Shown here in pieces: positions 3,006-62,319 of a stretch of 64,000 bases of DNA. The notes beneath the pieces are model-generated. The model made no database searches. It saw only the letters and a list, made by a program, of their open reading frames with translations, and was not told the DNA's origin. This DNA is from Lama glama (taxonomy: Eukaryota), in contig CM052816.1 in the NCBI GenBank assembly GCA_028534125.1, forward strand, positions 12,154,001 to 12,218,000, given 5' to 3'. Made by a program: the position numbers and the translations under genes. Position 1 is the stretch's first letter. Each line of letters starts with the position of its first letter.

Positions 3006-3505
3006 NNNNNNNNNNNNNNNNNNNNNNNNNNNNNNNNNNNNNNNNNNNNNNNNNNNNNNNNNNNNNNNNNNNNNNNNNNNNNNNNNNNNNNNNNNNNNNN
3101 NNNNNNNNNNNNNNNNNNNNNNNNNNNNNNNNNNNNNNNNNNNNNNNNNNNNNNNNNNNNNNNNNNNNNNNNNNNNNNNNNNNNNNNNNNNNNNNNNNNN
3201 NNNNNNNNNNNNNNNNNNNNNNNNNNNNNNNNNNNNNNNNNNNNNNNNNNNNNNNNNNNNNNNNNNNNNNNNNNNNNNNNNNNNNNNNNNNNNNNNNNNN
3301 NNNNNNNNNNNNNNNNNNNNNNNNNNNNNNNNNNNNNNNNNNNNNNNNNNNNNNNNNNNNNNNNNNNNNNNNNNNNNNNNNNNNNNNNNNNNNNNNNNNN
3401 NNNNNNNNNNNNNNNNNNNNNNNNNNNNNNNNNNNNNNNNNNNNNNNNNNNNNNNNNNNNNNNNNNNNNNNNNNNNNNNNNNNNNNNNNNNNNNNNNNNN
3501 NNNNN
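3006..3505. other. Assembly gap (500 N)
   Basis: Run of N from 3006 to 3505. Confidence 1.
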
Positions 3506-14764: not shown

Positions 14765-15272
14765 GGCCTCTGTCCTTTCAAGAATCACCCCTCCCCTCCG
14801 TTCCATGTGCTAATGCTATCAATCCTACTTCCCAGCCATAGGGATGGGCATCTAATCCAGACTGACCAATTAGAACACCCAATGTAGAATACTTAGGGGG
14901 AAAAAAAAAAGAGGACTGGTCCTCTAAACAGGTCCAATCAGTGTTTGTTTCAAAATAACTGATGGAGCCACTGTGGAGAGGGTTCTGGGGATTATGACAT
15001 GTAGGACTATAAACTGGAGCAGTTTATAATGTCTGTGCTGTGGTGAGGAGAGATCTAAAGACTAGAATAGCCTGGGGGAAGCGGGGAAAGGAACACAAGA
15101 CTGATGGCATCACCTGAACCTCCATGTCCTGTATCGCTTAAAGCCAGAACTCCTGCCTTGATTTCCCTATCATGTCCATTAGTTCCTCCACCTCCCTCAC
15201 TTTATTTTTTTTGGATAAAGAAGTTTGAACTGGGCTTCTGTCACACGTGACTGACCAAGTCCTGATTAATCT
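14765..15272 (+). mobile_element. Old MaLR/ERVL solo LTR (MLT1K/L-like)
   Basis: 'gggatgggcatctaatccagactgaccaattaga' and the 3' end 'gtttgaactgggcttctgtcacacgtgactgaccaagtcctgattaat'. Confidence 0.6.
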
Positions 15273-17339: not shown

Positions 17340-17868
17340 TAGTTTTCTTAAGCTCACAGCACCTGCATCATCATTTTGGGGACCACCACTTCACTCTGAA
17401 TCTGCTTGGTTCAATTCAGGATGACTCTATCTCCTGGTCCTAGAAGAGGAAAATGATCGAGGTGTGGCCTATCAGAGCACTGTACCTACCCCAGCCCCCA
17501 CGACTAGCTCTGGGGAGGGCAAGTGATCAAAGTTGGCCAATGGCATTCTATCCCAGGACATCGTATGGAACGTCAGGTGATGGCCGTTTCCCACTGGGAT
17601 TACTAAATTGGTAGGATGCAGACCTCCAGATGATGCTATTTATCCTACCATCCCAAAGGGAATGCCTACATGAGAATGAGCAAGCATGAAGGGGAGCAAA
17701 ACTGAGACTGAGAATGCACTGACTGTATCCCTTCACCTAGCCTTGCCTAAAGGCTTGAACTTCTCAATTATGTAAGCCTATAACTAACCAGCTCTCTCAC
17801 CCTCTCCTCTAAGCCAGTTTCAGTTGAGTTTCTGTCACCTGAAATTGAAACTCTCCCAACTAATGTAA
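17340..17868 (+). mobile_element. Old MaLR solo LTR (MLT1K/L-like)
   Basis: 'ggcctatcagagcac' and the 3' end 'taagccagtttcagttgagtttctgtcacctg...ccaactaat'. Confidence 0.65.
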
Positions 17869-18369
17869 TAGCTGAATACAATTGTGGTAACATCATTTGC
17901 CATAGTAGTTCAGCAACTTTTTAAATTGTCTTTTGTTAATACACAATGGAGAAATGTTTTTGAGAAGGAATGACAGTCATGGTGAAAGCTGATTTGTGAA
18001 ACAAATGCAGTTTTCCTTAATGTAACAGTGAGAATTATGAGTGGTCTATGCAAAGCAATAAATTTTAAAATACAAAGTTTCTGAGTCGAGAAAAGTTTTT
18101 TTAAAATAGGGGAACTGGAAGACAGAAATTTATTCATAAAATGTATTCAGCATTCTACCCTTATCAAATCAGTTTGTGTTATAGATACAGACTGACTGAA
18201 TTGTGGGGAAATTCGGCTGACTTCAGCAGTAAGACACAAACAGGTGAGTCTGCGGTGTTGCATGCATATGTATCTGCAGTGCTAAATAACCAGTTCTACT
18301 GGAACTTTCCTGAAATACGTATCAATACTTTTCCAGCACTGTTCCATGGGCCATGGGATAATCTATACC

Positions 18370-18840: not shown

Positions 18841-18882
18841 TGCCAAAATTCTGCCAAAATTCTGCAAAAATTCTGCAAAATC
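18841..18882. repeat. 11-bp tandem repeat (tgccaaaattc)x~4
   Basis: tgccaaaattc tgccaaaattc tgcaaaaattc tgcaaaatc. Confidence 0.9.
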
Positions 18883-19029
18883 AGCAAAGCTTGATTTCAA
18901 GCAGGACGGAACGAGCAGAATGAAGGACTAGAAGGCAAAGGTGCTCTGACCTGAACCTGTACAGAAAAGCTGAGGCTGAAGAGGAGATGTGGAACATTTG
19001 GCTCCACCTCTGTTCACCGGTTACTGATA

Positions 19030-19944: not shown

Positions 19945-20140
19945 GGGAGCAATGTCATACAGCATTTAAGGCACAGACTATAAAATCAAACAATTTGAAT
20001 CTCTTATTCACAACCTATTGGTGTTAAAGCTTTGTGAAAGGGATTTGCCATCTTCGACTATCAGTTTATCTCTAAGTAGAGAAAATAATTATTATCTCAG
20101 AGGGTGGTGGCAAGGATAAAATGAGTTAATATATAGTAGA
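19945..20140 (+). mobile_element. MIR SINE
   Basis: 'gagcaatgtcatacagcatttaaggcacagact...tctcagagggtggtggcaaggataaaatgagttaatata'. Confidence 0.65.
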
Positions 20141-20194
20141 AGACTCAAAATCCATTCTCTCTTTCCTGTTATTAAGAGTAATTTATTCCATAGT

Positions 20195-20665
20195 GAACAC
20201 CCTCCTCTCAGCATCCAACTGTGGTTTACATTAAAGTGATTAACCTTTAAGTTATAATGACTGACCTTGATCCAAACCAGGCAAATCATTCATATTAATT
20301 GGATCAATGTTAAATACACCACCCAAGCGGGGCAGAAAGTGCAATTCCATGACTTCTGCTAAAACTATTGGGGAAAAGAAGCTATCTTTTTTCTGGACTT
20401 ATCATTGCCATACATGTGGTAGAATATAAGCCATAAGTTACTGGTAGCTGTTTACCACCATGTGGAAAGAGTTTGCCTGAGGTTGAGTTTAAAAATGGGG
20501 ACACATTGAGCCCAAAATGGAGAGACACAGGTCCCTGAAGACACTGACTGTGCATGCAGGTCCATCCATACTTAAAGATGGATACAGCTCTGGATTTCCT
20601 TGGTCTGTGAACAGATTTGAATATGATTTATCTTCTTAGCCAATGAAAAACTGTTGATGAGTACT
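20195..20665 (+). mobile_element. Old MaLR solo LTR (MLT1K-like); contains arm A of the 54-bp inverted repeat
   Basis: 'acccaagcggggc...gacttctgctaaaactattggggaaaagaagct...accatgtggaaagagtttgcctgag'. Confidence 0.6.
20241..20294 (+). repeat. Arm A of a perfect 54-bp inverted repeat
   Basis: taacctttaagttataatgactgaccttgatccaaaccaggcaaatcattcata is the exact reverse complement of 22397-22450. Confidence 0.97.
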
Positions 20666-21569
20666 CTGTATAAACCACTTACTATAGTGAGTGTGTACTT
20701 ATCACATATCTTTCAATATTTTCTAAAACTGTTAGATGATCTATTCTTCATATTTTTAATTCTTACATGATTATAATATACCTTGCCAATTCATTGTGAA
20801 TTTTTTTGAAGACAAGAACCAATATTTCTGTGTATTTTTCCAGTTGCCTAGTACTTAGGTGTCAAATAAATATCTATAGATTATATTCACTCTCTATTAT
20901 AATTAACACATTGCTATTCCTGAAACGACAGTTTCTGATTTTTGTATTGACTCCATGAAATAAATATTAGGGCACTTAGGCTTTAAAATGGCATCTAATG
21001 AATCTAAAAGAGTATCTGCAAAACAGGACTCAGTCATTGAAAGATTTCTTCATGTTTAGGATTGTGGAAAAAAATTTAAGGGATCAAATGCAACAATATT
21101 GATTTTATAGTTAGGAACTAGCACTGAAAAATAGGATTCATCATTACAGATGATTGTTTTCCTTTGGATTTGAAATTTAAATTTGTATTATATGGCCATT
21201 CCAGGACAAAATCCATTTATACAAACATTGGGCTCAGTGTAAAATGTAAAGACCCAAATTTTTTTACATTTGAAGGCAAATTCCCATTGGCACCCTAGAC
21301 AGAGAATATGAGGACTATATCTAGTTACAATCCTGAGTAGGGAGTAATTTTAAAACATGAAATATGCAGAATCCTTAAATTGCTATTCTCCCCTTCCAAG
21401 TTGTTGGTGACCTGCCAAAGAAGATGTCCTTATCTTCTTGCTTCTTATCAGAACATAATGCAACAGAATTACACCATCTCCTGACACAAATATGAGATAT
21501 GGCCTAGGGTATGTTCAGAAGTGACATGCCATGTTTACTAATCAGGAAATTTTATAAGACCAGAGTCTG

Positions 21570-21690
21570 AAAACACCTCCATGACAGCAAGAACTTTTAT
21601 ATTTTTTCTTCACTGATACGTTCCAAATGCTTAAAAGAATGGCTATAATATCATAAGCAATAAATAACTAGTTGAATGAATGAATGGATA
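21570..21690 (+). mobile_element. L2 3' end
   Basis: 'ctccatgacagcaaga...ttcactgat...aataaataactagttgaatgaatgaatg'. Confidence 0.7.
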
Positions 21691-21879
21691 CAGGAATAAA
21701 CATTTTTATTAGAAGAAATGTAGCTAAACATGGATAAATGAAAGAACGAAGTCTAAGTTTTAACTCTATTTTACGAAGACCTAGGCATCTTATCCTTCCA
21801 TACTGTTCTGTATTACAGTTCTGACATCAGAGATTAAAAAAAAGACTCAGAGAAGGAATGAAAATGTATACTTGATAAT

Positions 21880-22110
21880 CCACTTTGTTTCACTGCAGGA
21901 TAATTTATGGTAACAAAGTACTGGAAAATATCCAAATGCAGAGGAATAGGATATTGGTTGGATAAATTATGCTACATACATATAACAGAATATTCTGGAG
22001 TCATTAAAATGGTCTTCAAGATGCTTAATAAAATTAAAAACTATCATTATATAAAAAGTGGAAAAGCGAATTGAGAAACTTTTCACGTATATTATGCCAT
22101 ATGTTTTAAA
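21880..22110 (+). mobile_element. L1ME-like fragment
   Basis: 'actggaaaatatccaaatg...ttggttggataaattatgctacatacatataacagaatatt'. Confidence 0.55.
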
Positions 22111-22396
22111 CCACATTGTCTGTACTGTTGCAAATCAACACTGAACATTTTTATGGTTTCTAATTTACATAGTAAACATATTTTTAAAATACTTAAATCC
22201 TTGGTAAGTGAAGTTTTATGAGCACAATGTTAGTGATTTGGGTTGTGGAAGGCACTTATGAAGAACCTGGGGAATAGAAGCCTACCAAATATATTTCAAG
22301 AAAACACTATTGGTTCAAACTCTCTTTTCTTCCAGTCCAAAGATTGAGAGGAATTTATACATGAAGCATGAACAGAAAGAACATATGAACAAATCG

Positions 22397-22450
22397 TATG
22401 AATGATTTGCCTGGTTTGGATCAAGGTCAGTCATTATAACTTAAAGGTTA
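22397..22450 (-). repeat. Arm B of the perfect 54-bp inverted repeat
   Basis: tatgaatgatttgcctggtttggatcaaggtcagtcattataacttaaaggtta. Confidence 0.97.
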
Positions 22451-23718
22451 TCTCCCATGGAACAGAGGACAGGAATGATGAGAAATATGCTGCCCCAGTC
22501 TTTTCTTCCTCCCATAAAGAAACAGAAAGGTACAATGCATGTCCTTCCTAGTGCAGATGCTCAAACTCATTTCTGTTCATTTAGATAAGTAATGAGGAGG
22601 ACGATAACCACTGGGTTTGTGGAACTGTGAAGTTTCCGCTGTGAGGATGTCACAGTCAAGAATATTAATATTCTCTGAGATGCTTTTGTTGCCATAAAAT
22701 CACTACCAACACCATGAATAGCGATACCCCCTTCAATTTCCTGTATTAAAACTCTAGTCTGCCATTCAACAGTCATTCACACACTGGTCATATCATGCTA
22801 ACAAAAGGGAAGCATGCTGTAACTTTGTTTTTCATCAATATTTGCTTAAATGTTTCATCAATATTCATCTTCTATCAGAAATCTATAAATAATCAAGAAA
22901 TTGACCTCTGATATAGATGTGTAAATTGTCTCTTTTTAAGGAAATATTATAATTGTCACTATTAATATTTCAACGGTCATATCCAGGTTTTGTGAAGCTA
23001 GGGACTTTTGAAAATATCCTCCAATGTGAAAATTTTATCCTAGGTCTGCAAATGTGTTCATTATTTCTACCTTATTACCCATCTTATATCATTTTATGTG
23101 TTCATTACAAAAGCTTTGACTATCCTAATAACTCTTGTAATGTGTCACATATAAAATAATGACTGCATTGAAAATGGTATTTTAAAAGTTAACTTACAAA
23201 GTGTCACTTTCAGATCATATTAGCATCCACTCCTAACATATTTAATACTTCATTCCATGACAATAAACAAAATTCACATTCCTATGAAGTTGTAGCCTAT
23301 CTACCCATAAAATCCTTAAGTAGTATAGGTATTCAATACCACTGCATTTAAACAGTTAAGAAATAAGCTTATCTATCATTAAGTCATTTATTCATTTATC
23401 CCTTTTCACTTGTAGCAAAAATATCAGGTGAATAAACTCAACCAGTATGGTTCTTGCCTATAATCAATAGCTAGGTTAATTCTATCATTAGAGCTTGTCG
23501 AGCTGCATATATGTAAGTCAGGTCTTAAAAAAATTAGTTTGAAAACTAACACAGGAATGATCTAGGGCAGTTTTCTCACCAAAACTGAATTTTTGAAGGT
23601 CGTGACTATAGCATGCTTGCTTTCACATTTCTGGCATCCAATTAATTACTCAGAAAATTTTTACTAAATTTAGTCCAGCCGTCAAATAGTCCCATTTATT
23701 GTGTAGCTAGAGGATGCA

Positions 23719-26489: not shown

Positions 26490-27560
26490 AACACTTTTAT
26501 ATGTACTTATTCCCCAAAATATAAAGCAGTATTTAGTATATTTTAACTTCCACACATGGCATTATATTTCATTCTTCAAAAAATTTTTCACTGACGTATA
26601 CTATGATATTCACCCATTTTGATATTCTAGTTCCTTCAGTTTCACTAGTGTGTTATTCGATTTTAATAAAACATCACATTTATCTAATCAATTTTAAGAA
26701 AACACCACAGTTTATTTAACTACTTTTTCCCTGTTGAGGCTTTTATCTACACTACTACACACAGCATCTCTCTCTTCATGTTATCTATATACTGCACAAG
26801 TGCCCATGTGTAAATCTGCAGGACTTTCTTTAGAATCTATACCTAAGAACTGAATAGCCATGTGGGCAATGTATATTTTCAACCATTCTAGGTATTGCCA
26901 AATGTTTCACTCCTTCAACTTTTCTAGTATTGCCAAATTGTTTCCACAATAGGTATACTAATGGATTAAGGTTTCTTTTGCTCTAAATTGACATTATCAA
27001 ACTTTGACATTTTTGCAAATCTGATGCGTATACAATAGAATTTAACTGTATTTAAATGTCATTTCACTTGTTACTGGTGAAGTGGAGTACATTTTCTCAT
27101 GTTTATTAGGTAGCCAAGGTTTTTCCTCCTCTACACTTCTGTTCTTACATTTGTCCTTCTTGTCATCAGGCTATCACATTTTTTCCTATCAATATGTTGG
27201 GGTTGTTTTTATCCTGGACATCTATATCTTTTGTTAGTCATTTGTATTGTTAATATCTTCTCCCAGTCTTTGGATTTCTTTCTTCCTCTCTTTTTAAAAC
27301 TAATTGTTTAGTAAACTTTTTTGGTAACATTGAAATTTATAAAACTTTACATTATGGTTTGTGCTTCCTGTATGTATTTTAAAGTTATTTTCTATCTAAA
27401 GGTCATAAAGATTATTTCCCATATTTTCTTCCTAAAAATACTAAAGTATGATTTTCATACTTAGGTCTACAATCACCACAGAAATAATCTGGGGATATAA
27501 TATGGGTCAGTAATCCTATATTATTTACTTTCACGTGGGTTTTAAATTCTCACACTACCA
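26490..27560 (-). mobile_element. L1ME-like fragment (~1.1 kb)
   Basis: Antisense L1 motifs 'ctaggtattgccaaa', 'ttttgcaaatctgatg', 'aatatcttctcccagtct', 'ttcatacttaggtct'. Confidence 0.75.
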
Positions 27561-44264: not shown

Positions 44265-46665
44265 GGAGAGAGCTCAAGCTGGCAGAGTATCAGGATGCTG
44301 GGCTCACTCCGTCATGAACATATCAAAACCACAACCACGTACAGAGCGACTCTACAGAAACTGACCTGGGGACTAGCAGGACTGCTCTTCTACAACCAAG
44401 GCTGTCAAGAAAGATTCACAGGGAGTCTGGAAGGGAGGGAGGAGATATGATCTGGCCAGGATGCAGAAAAGTCGGGGGACATAACAGGCTCAGGGATCCG
44501 GCCTAGCGAGCAAGGCGCTTGAGCCGTAAATTAAGACACCCCAGCCCCGGGGTCCAACATCAGCTGGTTTCAAAACCACTGCAGCTCACTGAAAGGCAGT
44601 AGGAAAATAAGACTCTGTTCCTGAAGAGCTTGTACAAGCAAGGGCTTGCAAATATTGCTATCAGCTGATTTTTTAGCAGAAATTTTGCAGACCAGAAGGG
44701 AGTGTAATGATAGATTTAAAGCGCTGAAAGGAAAAAACCTACAACCTAAGATATTTCACCTAGCAAGGTCATCATTCAGAATTGAAAAACAGATAACTTC
44801 TCAGACAAGCAAAAACTAAGAGTTCAATGCTTAAAAGAAGTGATAAAGGGTCTTCTTTACTGCCAAAGAAAAGGCTACAAGAATTAAGAAATTATAGAAA
44901 GAGAAAAAACACCAGTAAAGGCAAATATACTGTAAAATAAACTAACGATAATAAACAGCAAAAGAATAGTCATGAAGGTATGAAATATGACATCAAACAC
45001 ACAAAACGTGGAGGGGGAAAAATGTGCAACTTCTAAAATGTGTTTTAACTTAAATGACTTTCAGTTTAAAACCCATAGATATAGCTCCAGATCAACATAT
45101 CTGAACTCCATGGTAAACACAAACCAAACACCTACAGTAGATACTCAAAAACTAGAAAGGAACACTAACACAACACTAAAGAAAATCATCAAACCACAGG
45201 GGAGAGATTTAAAGGAAAAGAACAAAGATACAAAAAAATCAGAAAACAACAAAGGGGCAATAAGAACATACGTATCAATAATCACTTTAAATGCCAATGG
45301 GCTAAATGCTTCAATTAAGAGTAATAAAGTGGCTGACTGGATAAAAATAAGACCCATCTACATGCTGCCTACAAGAGAAACATTTCAGAGCTAAAGAAAC
45401 ACAAAGACTGAAGGCAAGAGGATGAAAAATGATATTCCACGCAAGTGGAAACAAAAAGAAGCTAGAGTAGCAATGCTCATTTCAAATTAGCCTTTAAAAC
45501 AAGGGTCACCTCAGCCTTTAAAACAAAATCAACAACAAAAGACAAAGAAGAGCATTATATAATGATAAAGGTCTCAACACAAGAAGAATACGTAAGATTC
45601 ATAAATTTATATGTACCTAATATTGGAGCATCTAAATACATAAAGAAATATTAACAGACAAAAAGGGAGAAGTTGACAACAATACAATAGCAGGGGACTT
45701 CAATACTCCACTTACATCAATGGACAGATCATCCAGAAAGACAATCAATAAAGAAAGAATAGCTTTAAATGACACATTAGACTTGCTGGACGTAAGAAAT
45801 ATCTACAGGACACTGCATCTAAAAACAGCAGAATACACATTTTTTTCAAGTAGCCATGGACCATTCTCTGGGATAGATCACACACCAGGCCACAAAACAA
45901 GTTTTAATTTAAGCACTTTTAAGAGGATAGAAATTATATCAAGTATCTTTTCTAATGAGAAAAGTATGACACTAGAAATCAATTACAGACAGAAAAATGG
46001 GAAAAACACAAACACATGGAGACTAAACGTGCTACGAAAAAAATCAATGGGTCAATAAAGAAATCAAAGAGGAAACTAGAAAATACTTTGAGACAAATGA
46101 AAATAAAAACACAACCTTCCACAAGCTATAGAATACAGTGAAAGGAGTTCTAAGAGGGAAATTTATAGTGATACAGGCCTACCTCAAGGAACAAGAGAAA
46201 ACTTAAACAATGCAACCAACCATCTAAAAGAATTAAATAAAGAAGAACAAACAAAACCCAAGCAGCAGAATGAAGGAGATTTTAAAAAGTCACAGTGGAA
46301 ATTAAAAAAAAAAAAAAGTAGAGACCAAAAATAATAAAAATGATCAATGAAATCAAGAACTGGTTGTTTTTTTTTTGAAAAGATGAACAATGTTAATAAG
46401 CTTTAGACAAGCTTACTAAGAAAAAAAGGACCCAAATAAACAAAATACAAGAGGAGAAATTACAACCAATATCACAGAAATACAACAAAATGAATAGAAT
46501 ATTACTAAAGTTATATACCAACAAACTGGACAACTTAAATAAATGCATAAATTCCTAGAAATATAAAATGTTTCAAGACTTCATCAGGAAGAAAAAGATA
46601 ATCTGAATAATTACTAGTATTAAAAGAAGCAGTCAAAAAATAACTTACAACAAACAAAAGCACAA
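44265..46665 (+). mobile_element. Decayed L1: 5' UTR start, ORF1 C-terminus, ORF2 endonuclease region
   Basis: 5' 'caagctggcagagta'. ORF1-like 'atcagctgattttttagcagaaattttgcagaccagaagggagtg'. ORF2 peptides 'SIITLNANGLNASIK', 'MDRSSRKTINKE...IYRTLHLKTAEYTFFSSSHG..S.IDH'. Many frameshifts. Confidence 0.95.
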
Positions 46666-56490: not shown

Positions 56491-56612
56491 CTAGTTTCAT
56501 TTTTTATTTTTAATTATTTTTTTCTTTATTTTTTAATGGAGGTACCGGGGACTGAACCCAGGACCTCATGCATGCTAAGCACATGCTCTCCCACTGAGCT
56601 ATACCCTCCTGC
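56491..56612 (-). mobile_element. tRNA-Ala-derived SINE (camelid Vic-type)
   Basis: Reverse complement ggagggtatagctcagtgggagagcatgtgcttagcatgcatgaggtcctgggttcagtccccggtacctcca plus A-rich tail. A/B boxes present. TSD tatgtcact (56482-56490 / 56613-56621). Confidence 0.85.
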
Positions 56613-57620: not shown

Positions 57621-57739
57621 TTTTTTTTTTTTAATTTTATTTATTTAATGGAAGTACTGGGGATTGAACCCAGGACTTCGTGCAAGCTAGGCATGCGCTC
57701 TACCATTGAGCTATTCCTGCCATACCCCCCACCCTCAAC
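57621..57739 (-). mobile_element. tRNA-Ala-derived SINE (camelid Vic-type)
   Basis: Reverse complement ...tagctcaatggtagagcgcatgcctagcttgcacgaagtcctgggttcaatccccagtacttcca plus A tail. TSD tgggacgtct / tgggacatgtct. Confidence 0.85.
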
Positions 57740-59790: not shown

Positions 59791-59930
59791 TTGTTACTTA
59801 AAGCACATACTAAGTAACAGAGACTCAACTACAAGTGACTCAAGAAAACAGTGATAGTTTTTCCTCACGTAATTAGAAGCTTGGATATGACAGCTCTGAG
59901 CCTTGGCCCAATGACACCCCCAAAGACTAG

Positions 59931-60494
59931 CACTATATACAATAGCCAAGACATGGAAACAACCTGAACGTCCATCCACAGATGACTGGATAAAGAAGTT
60001 GTGATATATTTATACAATGGAATACTACTCAGCTATACAAAGAATAAAATAATGCCATTTGCAGCAACATGGATGTCCCTGGAGGATGTCATTGTAAGTG
60101 GAGTAAGCCAGAAAGAGAAAGAAAACTACCGTATGATATCACTCATATGTGGAATATAAAAAAAGAAAAAAAGAGGACACTAATGAACTCCTCTACAAAA
60201 CCAAAACAAACTCACAGACATAGTAAACAATCTTATGGTTACCAGGGGAAAGGGTTGGGAAGAGATAAATTTGGGAGTCTGAGATTTGCAAATTGTTAGC
60301 CACTATATATAAAAATAGATTTAAAGAATATTTTTCTTTTGTATAGCACAGGAAACCATATTCAGTACCTTAAAATAACCTTTAATGAAAAAGAATATGA
60401 AAACGAATATATGTATGTATATGCATGACTGGGACATTGTGCTGTACACCAGAAATTGACACACTGTAACTGATTGTACTTCAATAAAAAAAAA
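59931..60494 (+). mobile_element. Young camelid-type L1 3' end with poly(A)
   Basis: 'acaatagccaagacatggaaacaacct...gaatactactcagc...ctgtacaccagaaattgacacactgtaactgattgtacttcaataaaaaaaaa'. Confidence 0.95.
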
Positions 60495-62010
60495 TGGAAA
60501 GTTAAAGATACAGAGGCAATTTTAAAGGCATCAAGAGAAAAAAGACAAGTCATATACAAGGGAACTCCCATAAGACTGCTAGCTGATTTTTCAGCAAAAA
60601 CTATGCAGGACAGAAGGGAATGGCATACTATATTCAAAGTGCTGGAAGGAAAACACAACCAAGGTTACGCTCCCTGAACAAGGTTACCAATCAGAAGTGA
60701 AAGAGAGATAAAGGATACCCAAGACAAGACAAACTAAAGGAGTCTCACCACTAAACCACCCTTACGAGTAATGTTAAAGAGCCTTATTTAAGCAGAAATC
60801 AAAAGGCGGTAACCAGAAATTATATATATATAATATATTATATATATACATGGAAAAATTCCTTTGGTAAAGACAATACAGTAAGGGCAGTGGATCAGTC
60901 ATTTAAAAAATTAGTATGAAGATTAAAATGCAAAAGTAGTAAAATCAACTATGACTACAATAAATGTTAAGGGATACGGAAAATGAAAAGATGTAAAATA
61001 TGATGTCAAAACTTAAAACACAATGGGAGGAGGTATAAGAAAGTAGTGCTTTTAGAATCTGTTTAAACTTAAACAGTTATCAGCTTAAAATAACTGATAC
61101 ACACACACACACACACCCCTCATGGTAACTACAAACTAAAACTTAAAGTAGATACACAGAAAATAAAGAAAAAAAAAATCCAAACTCAGTACCAAGGAAA
61201 ATCAAACCAAAGGAAGAAAACAAAAGAAGAAAAAAGGACCACAGAAGAACTACAAAAACAGTTAGTAAACATTTAAAAATGTCAATAGGTGCATACTTAT
61301 CAAAAATTATTTCAAATGTCAATAAGCTGAATGATTCAATCAAAAGATCATCAAAAGGGTGACTGAATGGATAAAAAAAATCAAGGTCCATCTATATTGC
61401 TGCCCACAAGAGGCTCACTTCAGAGCTAAAGACACTCACAGGCTGAAAGTAAAGGAAGGGAAAATATATTACACGAAAATGAAAATTTAAAAAAAAAAGC
61501 TAGGTAGCAACATTCATATCAGACAAAATGGACTTTAAAACAAAACTATAATAAAAGACAAGAAAAGCCATTACATCAAAGAGGTCAATCCAAAAATAGG
61601 ATATACCATTTAATATTTACACACACAACATAGGGATACCTAAATATATGAAGCAAATATTAATTGACCTAAAGACAGATGCAAATGGAAACATAACTTT
61701 CCACAATCTATGGAACACAACAAAAGGAGTTGTAAGTGGGAAGTTCACAGGGACAGTGGCCTACCGAAAATATACAAACAAAACAAAAACAAGAAAAACC
61801 TCAAATAAACCATCTAACTTTGCACCTTGAGGAACTGGCAAAAGAACAAAGCCCAAAGTGAGTAAAAGAAAGGAAATAACAGAGGTCAGAGTAGAAATAA
61901 ACTTTAAAAGACTAAGAAAAGATCAATGAAAAGCTGGTTCTTTGAAAAGATCAACAAAATTGATAAACCGTTAGCCAGACTTGGGAAGAAAAAGCAAGAG
62001 TCCAAATAAC
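60495..62010 (+). mobile_element. Decayed L1: ORF1 C-terminus, spacer, ORF2 N-terminus with an internal deletion
   Basis: 'KVKDTEAILKASREKRQVIYKGTPIRLLADFSAKTMQDRREW..IFKVL' is ORF1. 'KQILIDLK|TDANGNITFHNLWNTTKGV' is ORF2 across a deletion. Confidence 0.92.
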
Positions 62011-62017
62011 CACAATC

Positions 62018-62319
62018 GAGAGCCTGGAAAGTCCAGGATCATGATGCCAGCAGATTCAGCGTGGCGGCTGCTAAGGGACCGTTTCCTGACTCATAGATGG
62101 CGCCTCTTCACTGTGTCCTCACACGGTGGAAGTGGCACAGGATTTCCCTGGATGCTCTTTTATAAAGGCATTAATCCCACTCATGAAGGTTTCACCCTCA
62201 TAATCTAATCACTTCTTAAAATCTCCACCTCCAAATACCATCACAGTGGGCATTAAGATTTCAACATACGAATTTGGTGGGGGGGGGAGGCCGGGGACAC
62301 AAACATTCAGACCATGGTA
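62018..62319 (-). mobile_element. MLT1A-like MaLR LTR (truncated)
   Basis: 'aagtccaggatcatgatgccagcagattc...cattaatcccactcatga...aaataccatcac...ggacacaaacattcagaccat'. Confidence 0.85.

What the first reader, a model, noticed from the sequence alone, without database searches (positions are those of the whole stretch)
20241..22450. Perfect 54-bp inverted repeat 2.1 kb apart: recent templated inverted copy from an ancient LTR
Seen: 20241-20294 and 22397-22450 are exact reverse complements, with mismatches immediately outside both ends. Arm A appears collinear with the heavily diverged MLT1-like LTR on both sides, so it is the likely donor. Arm B sits in unrelated sequence, just after short repeats (catgaagcatgaac...catatgaacaaatcg|tatgaatg) that share TATGAA with the insert start. 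Inference: 100% identity inside a very old element means a recent event, such as template switching or polymerase-theta-type templated insertion at a repaired break, or ongoing conversion. If transcribed, the arms could form a 54-bp RNA duplex looping out ~2.1 kb (possible ADAR substrate or splicing effect). They could also seed inversion of the intervening DNA.
Basis: partly seen in the sequence, partly recalled or inferred. Interest (0 to 1): 0.75.

Follow-up and report, generated by a model that had tools for sequence, protein, structure and literature searches.

The report
Ordinary inverted DNA-repair copy, camelid
A 54-base piece of non-coding DNA was copied back-to-front about 2 kb from its source, most likely during repair of a chromosome break; it is real and inherited, but it looks like an ordinary repair scar of a kind already catalogued by the hundreds in mammalian genomes.

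Summary
The 54-bp exact inverted match (20241-20294 / 22397-22450) is real and far beyond chance. It is not an assembly artefact: contigs of two DNA runs with different organism labels and studies carry arm B, at depths fitting two full copies. In one run arm A has a substitution (20287 C>T) that arm B lacks, so the arms are not kept identical there. A contig of a ~2.2%-diverged relative runs collinearly through arm A, which favours arm A as donor and argues against an inversion breakpoint. That relative does not cover arm B's site, so the empty site, filler and microhomology are unseen. 'Recent' is loose: identity over 54 bp still has probability 0.35 if the copy is as old as that relative's split. 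Best reading (0.75): a germline repair-mediated proximal duplication (Pace et al. 2009; 202 listed in cow), here inverted. The repair pathway is not identifiable. A 54-bp RNA helix is predicted, but editing, splicing effects and inversion polymorphism were not shown. The MLT1 label could not be tested. Ordinary; low interest.

The parts
20241..20294 (+). Arm A, probable donor (54 bp)
   Evidence: Exact match to arm B; present in place in the 2.2%-diverged run X17, contig 20110-20455; carries C>T at 20287 in X13 and C>T at 20266 in X17 (one contig, depth 4.1)
22397..22450 (-). Arm B, probable inserted inverted copy (54 bp)
   Evidence: Both junctions lie in contigs of X1 and X13; collapsed repeat contig at twice single-copy depth in both
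20295..22396 (.). 2,102-nt spacer; no sign of inversion at arm A's inner edge
   Evidence: X17 contig holds 131 nt left and 161 nt right of arm A in window order
22383..22396 (+). Possible junction scar: ATATGAA (matches the donor edge) then CAAATC (inverted match to the start of the copy)
   Evidence: Against random local 20-mers P 0.03 and 0.10, both together 0.002, chosen after seeing them; unproven without the empty site
20130..20650 (+). Old interspersed repeat around arm A, MLT1-like by recall; limits approximate
   Evidence: Weak pairwise match of 20417-20577 to 17609-17752; family name recalled, not tested
22336..22395 (+). Exon-like 60-nt segment ending at a GT whose T is the first base of arm B; weak
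   Evidence: Acceptor ranks 110 of 4,239 AG sites, donor only 991 of 2,950 GT sites on a crude matrix with recalled weights; no Pfam match for its frame

Best explanation
A one-off germline repair-mediated duplication. A break near 22396/22451 was repaired; one 3' end primed on the nearby template at 20241-20294 in the opposite orientation (same chromatid, sister or homologue), copied about 50 nt, released and rejoined the other end, perhaps with a few filler bases. The allele spread, and the two copies now mutate independently with no known function. Shown: two copies, in two animals, at two-copy depth; one independent arm substitution; arm A in place in a relative. Inferred: that arm B is an insertion, the break, the priming and the filler. 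The pathway (ectopic SDSA, microhomology template switching or polymerase theta) is undetermined.
For: Exact 54-bp match, chance about 2e-22. X13 contig ends (20257-22434, 22405-22450, 22421 onward) are exactly those expected of a 31-mer graph with two copies differing at 20287. Collapsed depth 69.7 against 68.0 expected for two full copies and about 51 for a heterozygote; X1 20.4 against 20.1 and about 15. X17 collinear through arm A. Size, 2.1-kb distance and absence of a poly(A) tail fit Pace et al. 2009 (PMC2671141): 824 of 1,136 human duplicons within 5 kb, 0 of 39 inspected proximal cases with poly(A/T), 202 RDs in cow. Inverted templated insertions occur as human germline variants (PMC8421209).
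Against: No empty site seen: X17 and X18 have no contig between 22310 and 22813, so insertion, deletion, filler and microhomology are all unverified. The apparent extension of the match to 71 bp is not significant (P 0.25), and the right junction has no notable microhomology outside the match (3 nt, null near 1.0). X1's junction contigs reach only 29 and 30 nt into arm B, and X13's right one 30 nt, under the tool's 31-letter bridging rule; only X13's left junction (38 nt) meets it. The part of Pace's Table S1 that I read has no orientation column, so how common inverted cases are is not established here.
Confidence: 0.75

Rival explanations
1. Same origin, but as an inverted replacement patch: a template switch overwrote a pre-existing stretch at 22397-22450 rather than inserting into a break.
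For: Cannot be told from an insertion without the empty site. MMB-TI events with replacement are described (PMC8421209).
Against: No significant homeology beyond the 54 bp that would have guided a return switch.
Confidence: 0.1
2. The arms are the duplicated ends of a 2.1-kb inversion made by staggered breaks.
For: Inverted duplications at inversion ends are a known outcome (recalled). If the event predates the split from X17's lineage (probability about 0.27-0.35), X17's collinearity is not informative.
Against: X17 contig crosses arm A in window order. The old repeat continues right of arm A (weak). The flank inside arm B shows no minus-strand match to that repeat family (P 0.45).
Confidence: 0.05
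3. The pair is kept identical by selection for an RNA duplex or by recurrent conversion.
For: Arms identical in the window and X1; predicted duplex -91.4 kcal/mol, mean pair probability 0.99 in the 2.3-kb plus-strand fold. RNA-labelled runs have contigs in the spacer.
Against: X13 has an uncorrected arm A substitution; under neutral decay at least one difference on that branch has probability 0.15 and zero shared differences 0.35 or more, so neutrality suffices. Any perfect 54-mer pair folds this way. No coding exon found among 69 of 1,356 open frames scanned.
Confidence: 0.05
4. Assembly or library chimera.
For: Short-read type assembly with an N gap in the window; X1 may be the source animal and so not independent.
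Against: X13, from another study and organism label and 9 substitutions away in 3,058 nt, has both junctions, two-copy depth and its own arm mismatch.
Confidence: 0.02

Closest known systems
Repair-mediated duplications (RDs), Pace, Sen, Batzer & Feschotte 2009, PMC2671141 (read parts 1-5 of 8 of the text, passages, part 1 of 15 of Table S1)
   Same: Two-copy insertion of 50 bp or more, donor within 5 kb (paper: mean 1.2 kb apart, mean length 162 bp), no poly(A) tail, found in non-primate mammals; at least one listed case (ACSBG2) is in opposite orientation.
   Different: At the short end of the size range; acceptor not shown to interrupt an annotated transposon (their detection criterion); breakpoint hallmarks not verified against an empty site.
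Doublets, Thomas et al. 2004 PNAS (not held; seen only as described by Pace et al.; other details recalled)
   Same: Short (<100 bp) identical pair in close proximity.
   Different: By recall most doublets are on the same strand; this one is inverted.
MMBIR templated insertions (MMB-TI), PMC8421209 (passages and part 1 of 2 of section 10)
   Same: [quoted passage not shown]
   Different: Flanking microhomology, their defining sign, cannot be read here; I did not see their template-distance range.
Polymerase-theta templated insertions (as described in SIQ, PMC9442499, passages)
   Same: Insert copied from nearby DNA in either orientation; possible short filler.
   Different: That tool's default search is 100 bp around the junction; this donor is 2.1 kb away. 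The paper itself says pathway assignment needs genetic support.
Inverted Alu pairs as intronic dsRNA (review PMC11263572, passages)
   Same: Nearby inverted arms could pair if co-transcribed.
   Different: One 54-bp pair rather than about 300-bp repeats (recalled length); no transcript across both arms shown.

Membership tests
Repair-mediated duplication (Pace 2009) | Duplicated segment of 50 bp or more | tested here: met
   54-bp exact match; a few edge bases could be pre-existing microhomology
Repair-mediated duplication (Pace 2009) | Only one other copy in the genome | tested here: met
   Collapsed contig depth equals the sum of two single-copy flanks in X13 and X1; no whole genome held
Repair-mediated duplication (Pace 2009) | Donor more than 50 bp and less than 5 kb from acceptor | tested here: met
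   2,102 nt between arms
Repair-mediated duplication (Pace 2009) | No poly(A/T) tail of 5 or more at the insert ends | tested here: met
   Flanks of arm B read directly
Repair-mediated duplication (Pace 2009) | Empty orthologous site showing microhomology, filler or short deletion | tested here: inconclusive
   X17 and X18 do not cover 22310-22813; metagenome scan gave one chance hit
Repair-mediated duplication (Pace 2009) | Acceptor interrupts an annotated transposon (detection criterion) | not testable with these tools
   No repeat library; arm B flanks have no significant second copy in the window
Polymerase-theta templated insertion | Template close to the junction (100 bp default search in SIQ) | tested here: not met
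   Main donor 2.1 kb away; only the possible 6-7 nt filler would be local
Polymerase-theta templated insertion | Dependence on POLQ | not testable with these tools
   Needs genetics
MMB-TI | Inverted relative to a proximal template | tested here: met
   definition
MMB-TI | Microhomology at both junctions | tested here: inconclusive
   Left motifs suggestive, right none outside the match; needs the empty site
Inversion with duplicated breakpoints | Spacer reversed relative to outgroup | tested here: not met
   X17 contig collinear across arm A, valid if the event postdates that split
Conversion-homogenised inverted repeat | New mutations shared by both arms | tested here: not met
   20287 C>T in arm A only in X13; a single site
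ADAR-edited intronic duplex | Both arms on one transcript with A-to-G clusters | not testable with these tools
   Only contigs were laid; RNA runs are from the diverged relative, miss arm B, and 15 difference rows were not shown
MLT1 (MaLR) LTR as host of arm A | Alignment to the family consensus across arm A | not testable with these tools
   No library; pairwise tests with other old copies in the window not significant for arm A

The most novel reading that the evidence does not exclude
One repair event created a perfect 54-bp long-range RNA duplex in a plus-strand transcript, whose second arm begins on the GT after an exon-like 60-nt segment (22336-22395), so that pairing or editing controls inclusion of that segment in this lineage only. 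This would be a datable birth of an RNA-structure regulator from a repair scar.
Probability: 0.03. Interest if true: 0.55.

Novelty: new member of a known kind. Interest (0 to 1): 0.14.

Why it matters
Little on its own. It is a clean camelid example of a short proximal duplication in inverted orientation. Extrapolating the non-primate densities of Pace et al. (0.18-0.26 per Mb of transposon DNA) gives roughly 1-2 per hundred 64-kb windows and several hundred per genome, so a scan should meet them regularly. The useful lesson is that identity over 54 bp dates a copy only loosely. It would matter more only if the duplex proved to be transcribed and edited, or if the spacer were found in both orientations in living animals.

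Tried and rejected
Whole genome: none held. Outgroup state of arm B: X17 and X18 have no contig over 22310-22813; a hole in contigs proves nothing. X1 and X13 have no contig left of 20241 in the laid stretch; the tool filters some records, so no finding. One metagenome scan with a 22-mer from the right flank gave 1 hit, L001, matching only 23 nt: chance. Extension of the match to 71-72 bp seen with relaxed BLAST: rejected, P 0.25. Confirming LTR collinearity from other copies in the window: not significant in the 4 tests involving the arm A region. Host gene: Pfam on 69 of 1,356 open frames of 28 aa or more, chosen by composition, length or closeness, gave only a below-cutoff endonuclease match at 45636; Rfam gave 2 tRNA-like hits far away; no host gene identified. 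Exon idea: donor weak. Inversion polymorphism: contigs break at the repeat, so orientation cannot be read. Earlier notes near this place or on look-alike sequence: none. Thomas 2004 and Min 2023 are not held. I make no claim that this locus is absent from print; I did not search for it. bioRxiv supplements were not consulted.

Full report
Observation. Window 20241-20294 and 22397-22450 are exact reverse complements with a mismatch directly outside each end. It is the longest of 109 inverted exact matches of 14 nt or more in the window; the next are 26 nt (a TA-rich self-palindrome) and 19 nt. The chance expectation is about 2e-22. The only gap in the window is 17 kb away. Earlier notes on this genome call it a camelid (not checked beyond two tRNA-like hits that may be SINE heads).

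Is it real? No genome is held, so I searched public runs (24 listed, 16 hold half or more of the words, five organism labels among them) and laid 4 of them. X1 gives contigs 20266-22425 and 22421-23300 and a collapsed 55-bp contig at depth 20.4, against 10.9 and 9.18 for the flanks. X13, with a different organism label and study, gives 20257-22434, 22421-23300 and a collapsed 46-bp contig 22405-22450 at depth 69.7, against 33.4 and 34.6. X13's ends are exactly what a 31-mer graph predicts for two copies differing at 20287; X1's interior contig is one base shorter at each end than predicted for identical arms. Both collapsed depths fit two full copies rather than a heterozygote. No joint for an empty allele was listed. 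Caveat: three of the four junction contigs reach 29-30 nt into arm B, just under the tool's 31-letter bridging rule, and X1 may be the source animal. X13 alone still makes an artefact very unlikely.

Which arm is the donor, and is the spacer inverted? X17 and X18 are RNA-labelled runs about 2.2% diverged from the window (38 differences in 1,783 nt over 8 contigs; 36 in 1,555 nt over 6). X17's contig 20110-20455 runs through arm A in window order, 131 nt to its left and 161 nt to its right, with 8 substitutions and a 2-nt gap at 20338. So arm A sits in its context in that lineage, with no breakpoint at its inner edge. Neither run covers arm B's site. The part right of arm A aligns weakly to another old repeat at 17609-17752; arm A itself does not align significantly.

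Age and conversion. X13 has T at 20287 in arm A, while its arm B keeps the partner base, and X17 has the window's C, so this is a derived change that was not copied across. One site is thin evidence, but neutral decay predicts such a change with probability 0.15. The copy is older than the divergence of the window's and X13's haplotypes (9 substitutions in 3,058 nt). Zero shared differences has probability 0.35 if the copy is as old as the split from the 2.2% relative, and the 95% upper bound is 2.6 times that split. With a flat prior the chance that it is younger than that split is 0.65-0.73. If that relative is an Old World camel, an assumption, and the split is 16.3 Ma (PMC12337305, passage), the window is about 2 to 43 Ma. 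That is young beside the old repeat around arm A, but not demonstrably recent.

Junctions. Left of arm B, ATATGAA (22383-22389) matches the donor edge and CAAATC (22390-22395) is an inverted match to the start of the copy. Against random local 20-mers these have P 0.03 and 0.10, jointly 0.002, but I chose them after seeing them. They hint at priming and a 7-nt filler. The right junction shows nothing outside the match, and the longer 71-bp homeology is chance-level. Without the empty site none of this is established.

Mechanism. Most likely (0.75) a break end invaded or annealed to a template 2.1 kb away in the opposite orientation, copied about 50 nt and rejoined. Shown: two germline copies, independent decay at one site, arm A in place in a relative. 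Inferred: insertion, break, priming, filler. Rivals: replacement patch (0.10), duplicated inversion ends (0.05), selection or conversion (0.05), artefact (0.02).

Comparison with the known. Pace et al. 2009 (PMC2671141; parts 1-5 of 8, passages and the first part of Table S1) describe repair-mediated duplications: 824 of 1,136 human duplicons lie within 5 kb, mean length 162 bp, 202 were found in cow, 7 human-specific pairs are identical, one listed case is in opposite orientation, and the authors already note that such pairs could seed inversion or deletion of the spacer. This finding meets the size, distance, two-copy and no-tail criteria; the empty-site criterion is untested. Inverted germline templated insertions are also reported in PMC8421209. 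A polymerase-theta assignment is not supported by distance (SIQ searches 100 bp by default) and needs genetics. Earlier agents read similar inverted copies in other genomes the same way; these are unchecked notes and not support.

RNA consequences. The arms form a -91.4 kcal/mol duplex and pair with mean probability 0.99 in the plus-strand fold, as any perfect 54-mer pair would. Evidence for transcription is weak: RNA-labelled contigs cover parts of the spacer in the relative, the tool warns that DNA may be present, and one X18 contig has a loose end at 21640 that by recall is a cDNA template-switch adapter, hinting at a plus-strand RNA. No host gene was found. Chen et al. 2017 (PMC5398296, parts 1-2 of 6) limited their hairpin survey to spacers of 1 kb or less as longer ones were judged less likely to fold. 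A 60-nt exon-like segment ends where arm B starts, but its donor scores poorly. Editing, splicing and inversion polymorphism remain untested.

Verdict. Real, inherited, probably neutral; a new member of a known kind. Interest 0.14.

Noticed in passing
window 21640-22045 (run X18): A contig of depth 22.5 starts with a 23-nt loose end that by recall is a cDNA template-switch adapter, and ends near an A-rich stretch; a weak hint of plus-strand transcription in the diverged relative.
   Followed up: no
window 22316-22402: Pyrimidine tract plus CAG, a 60-nt segment with an open frame, then a GT overlapping the first base of arm B; acceptor fair, donor poor, no Pfam match.
   Followed up: partly
window 15075-15270, 17350-17900, 20130-20650: Three old, same-strand copies of what looks like one LTR-type repeat family; 15k and 17k align clearly (0 of 300 shuffles as high), 20k only weakly.
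   Followed up: partly
window 18841-18888: Short tandem array of an 11-bp unit, about 4 copies, 90% matched, in otherwise unique-looking DNA.
   Followed up: no
window 26660-26719: Two-copy 31-bp tandem duplication, 86% matched.
   Followed up: no
window 56537-56608 and 57649-57720: Two tRNA-like Rfam hits on the minus strand about 1.1 kb apart, within a pair of stretches 81% alike; probably heads of a tRNA-derived SINE.
   Followed up: no
window 44660-46450 and 59930-62020: LINE-1-like remnants matching each other at 64-73%; a below-cutoff endonuclease match at 45636-46055.
   Followed up: no
window 3006-3505: A 500-N assembly gap, the only one in the window.
   Followed up: no
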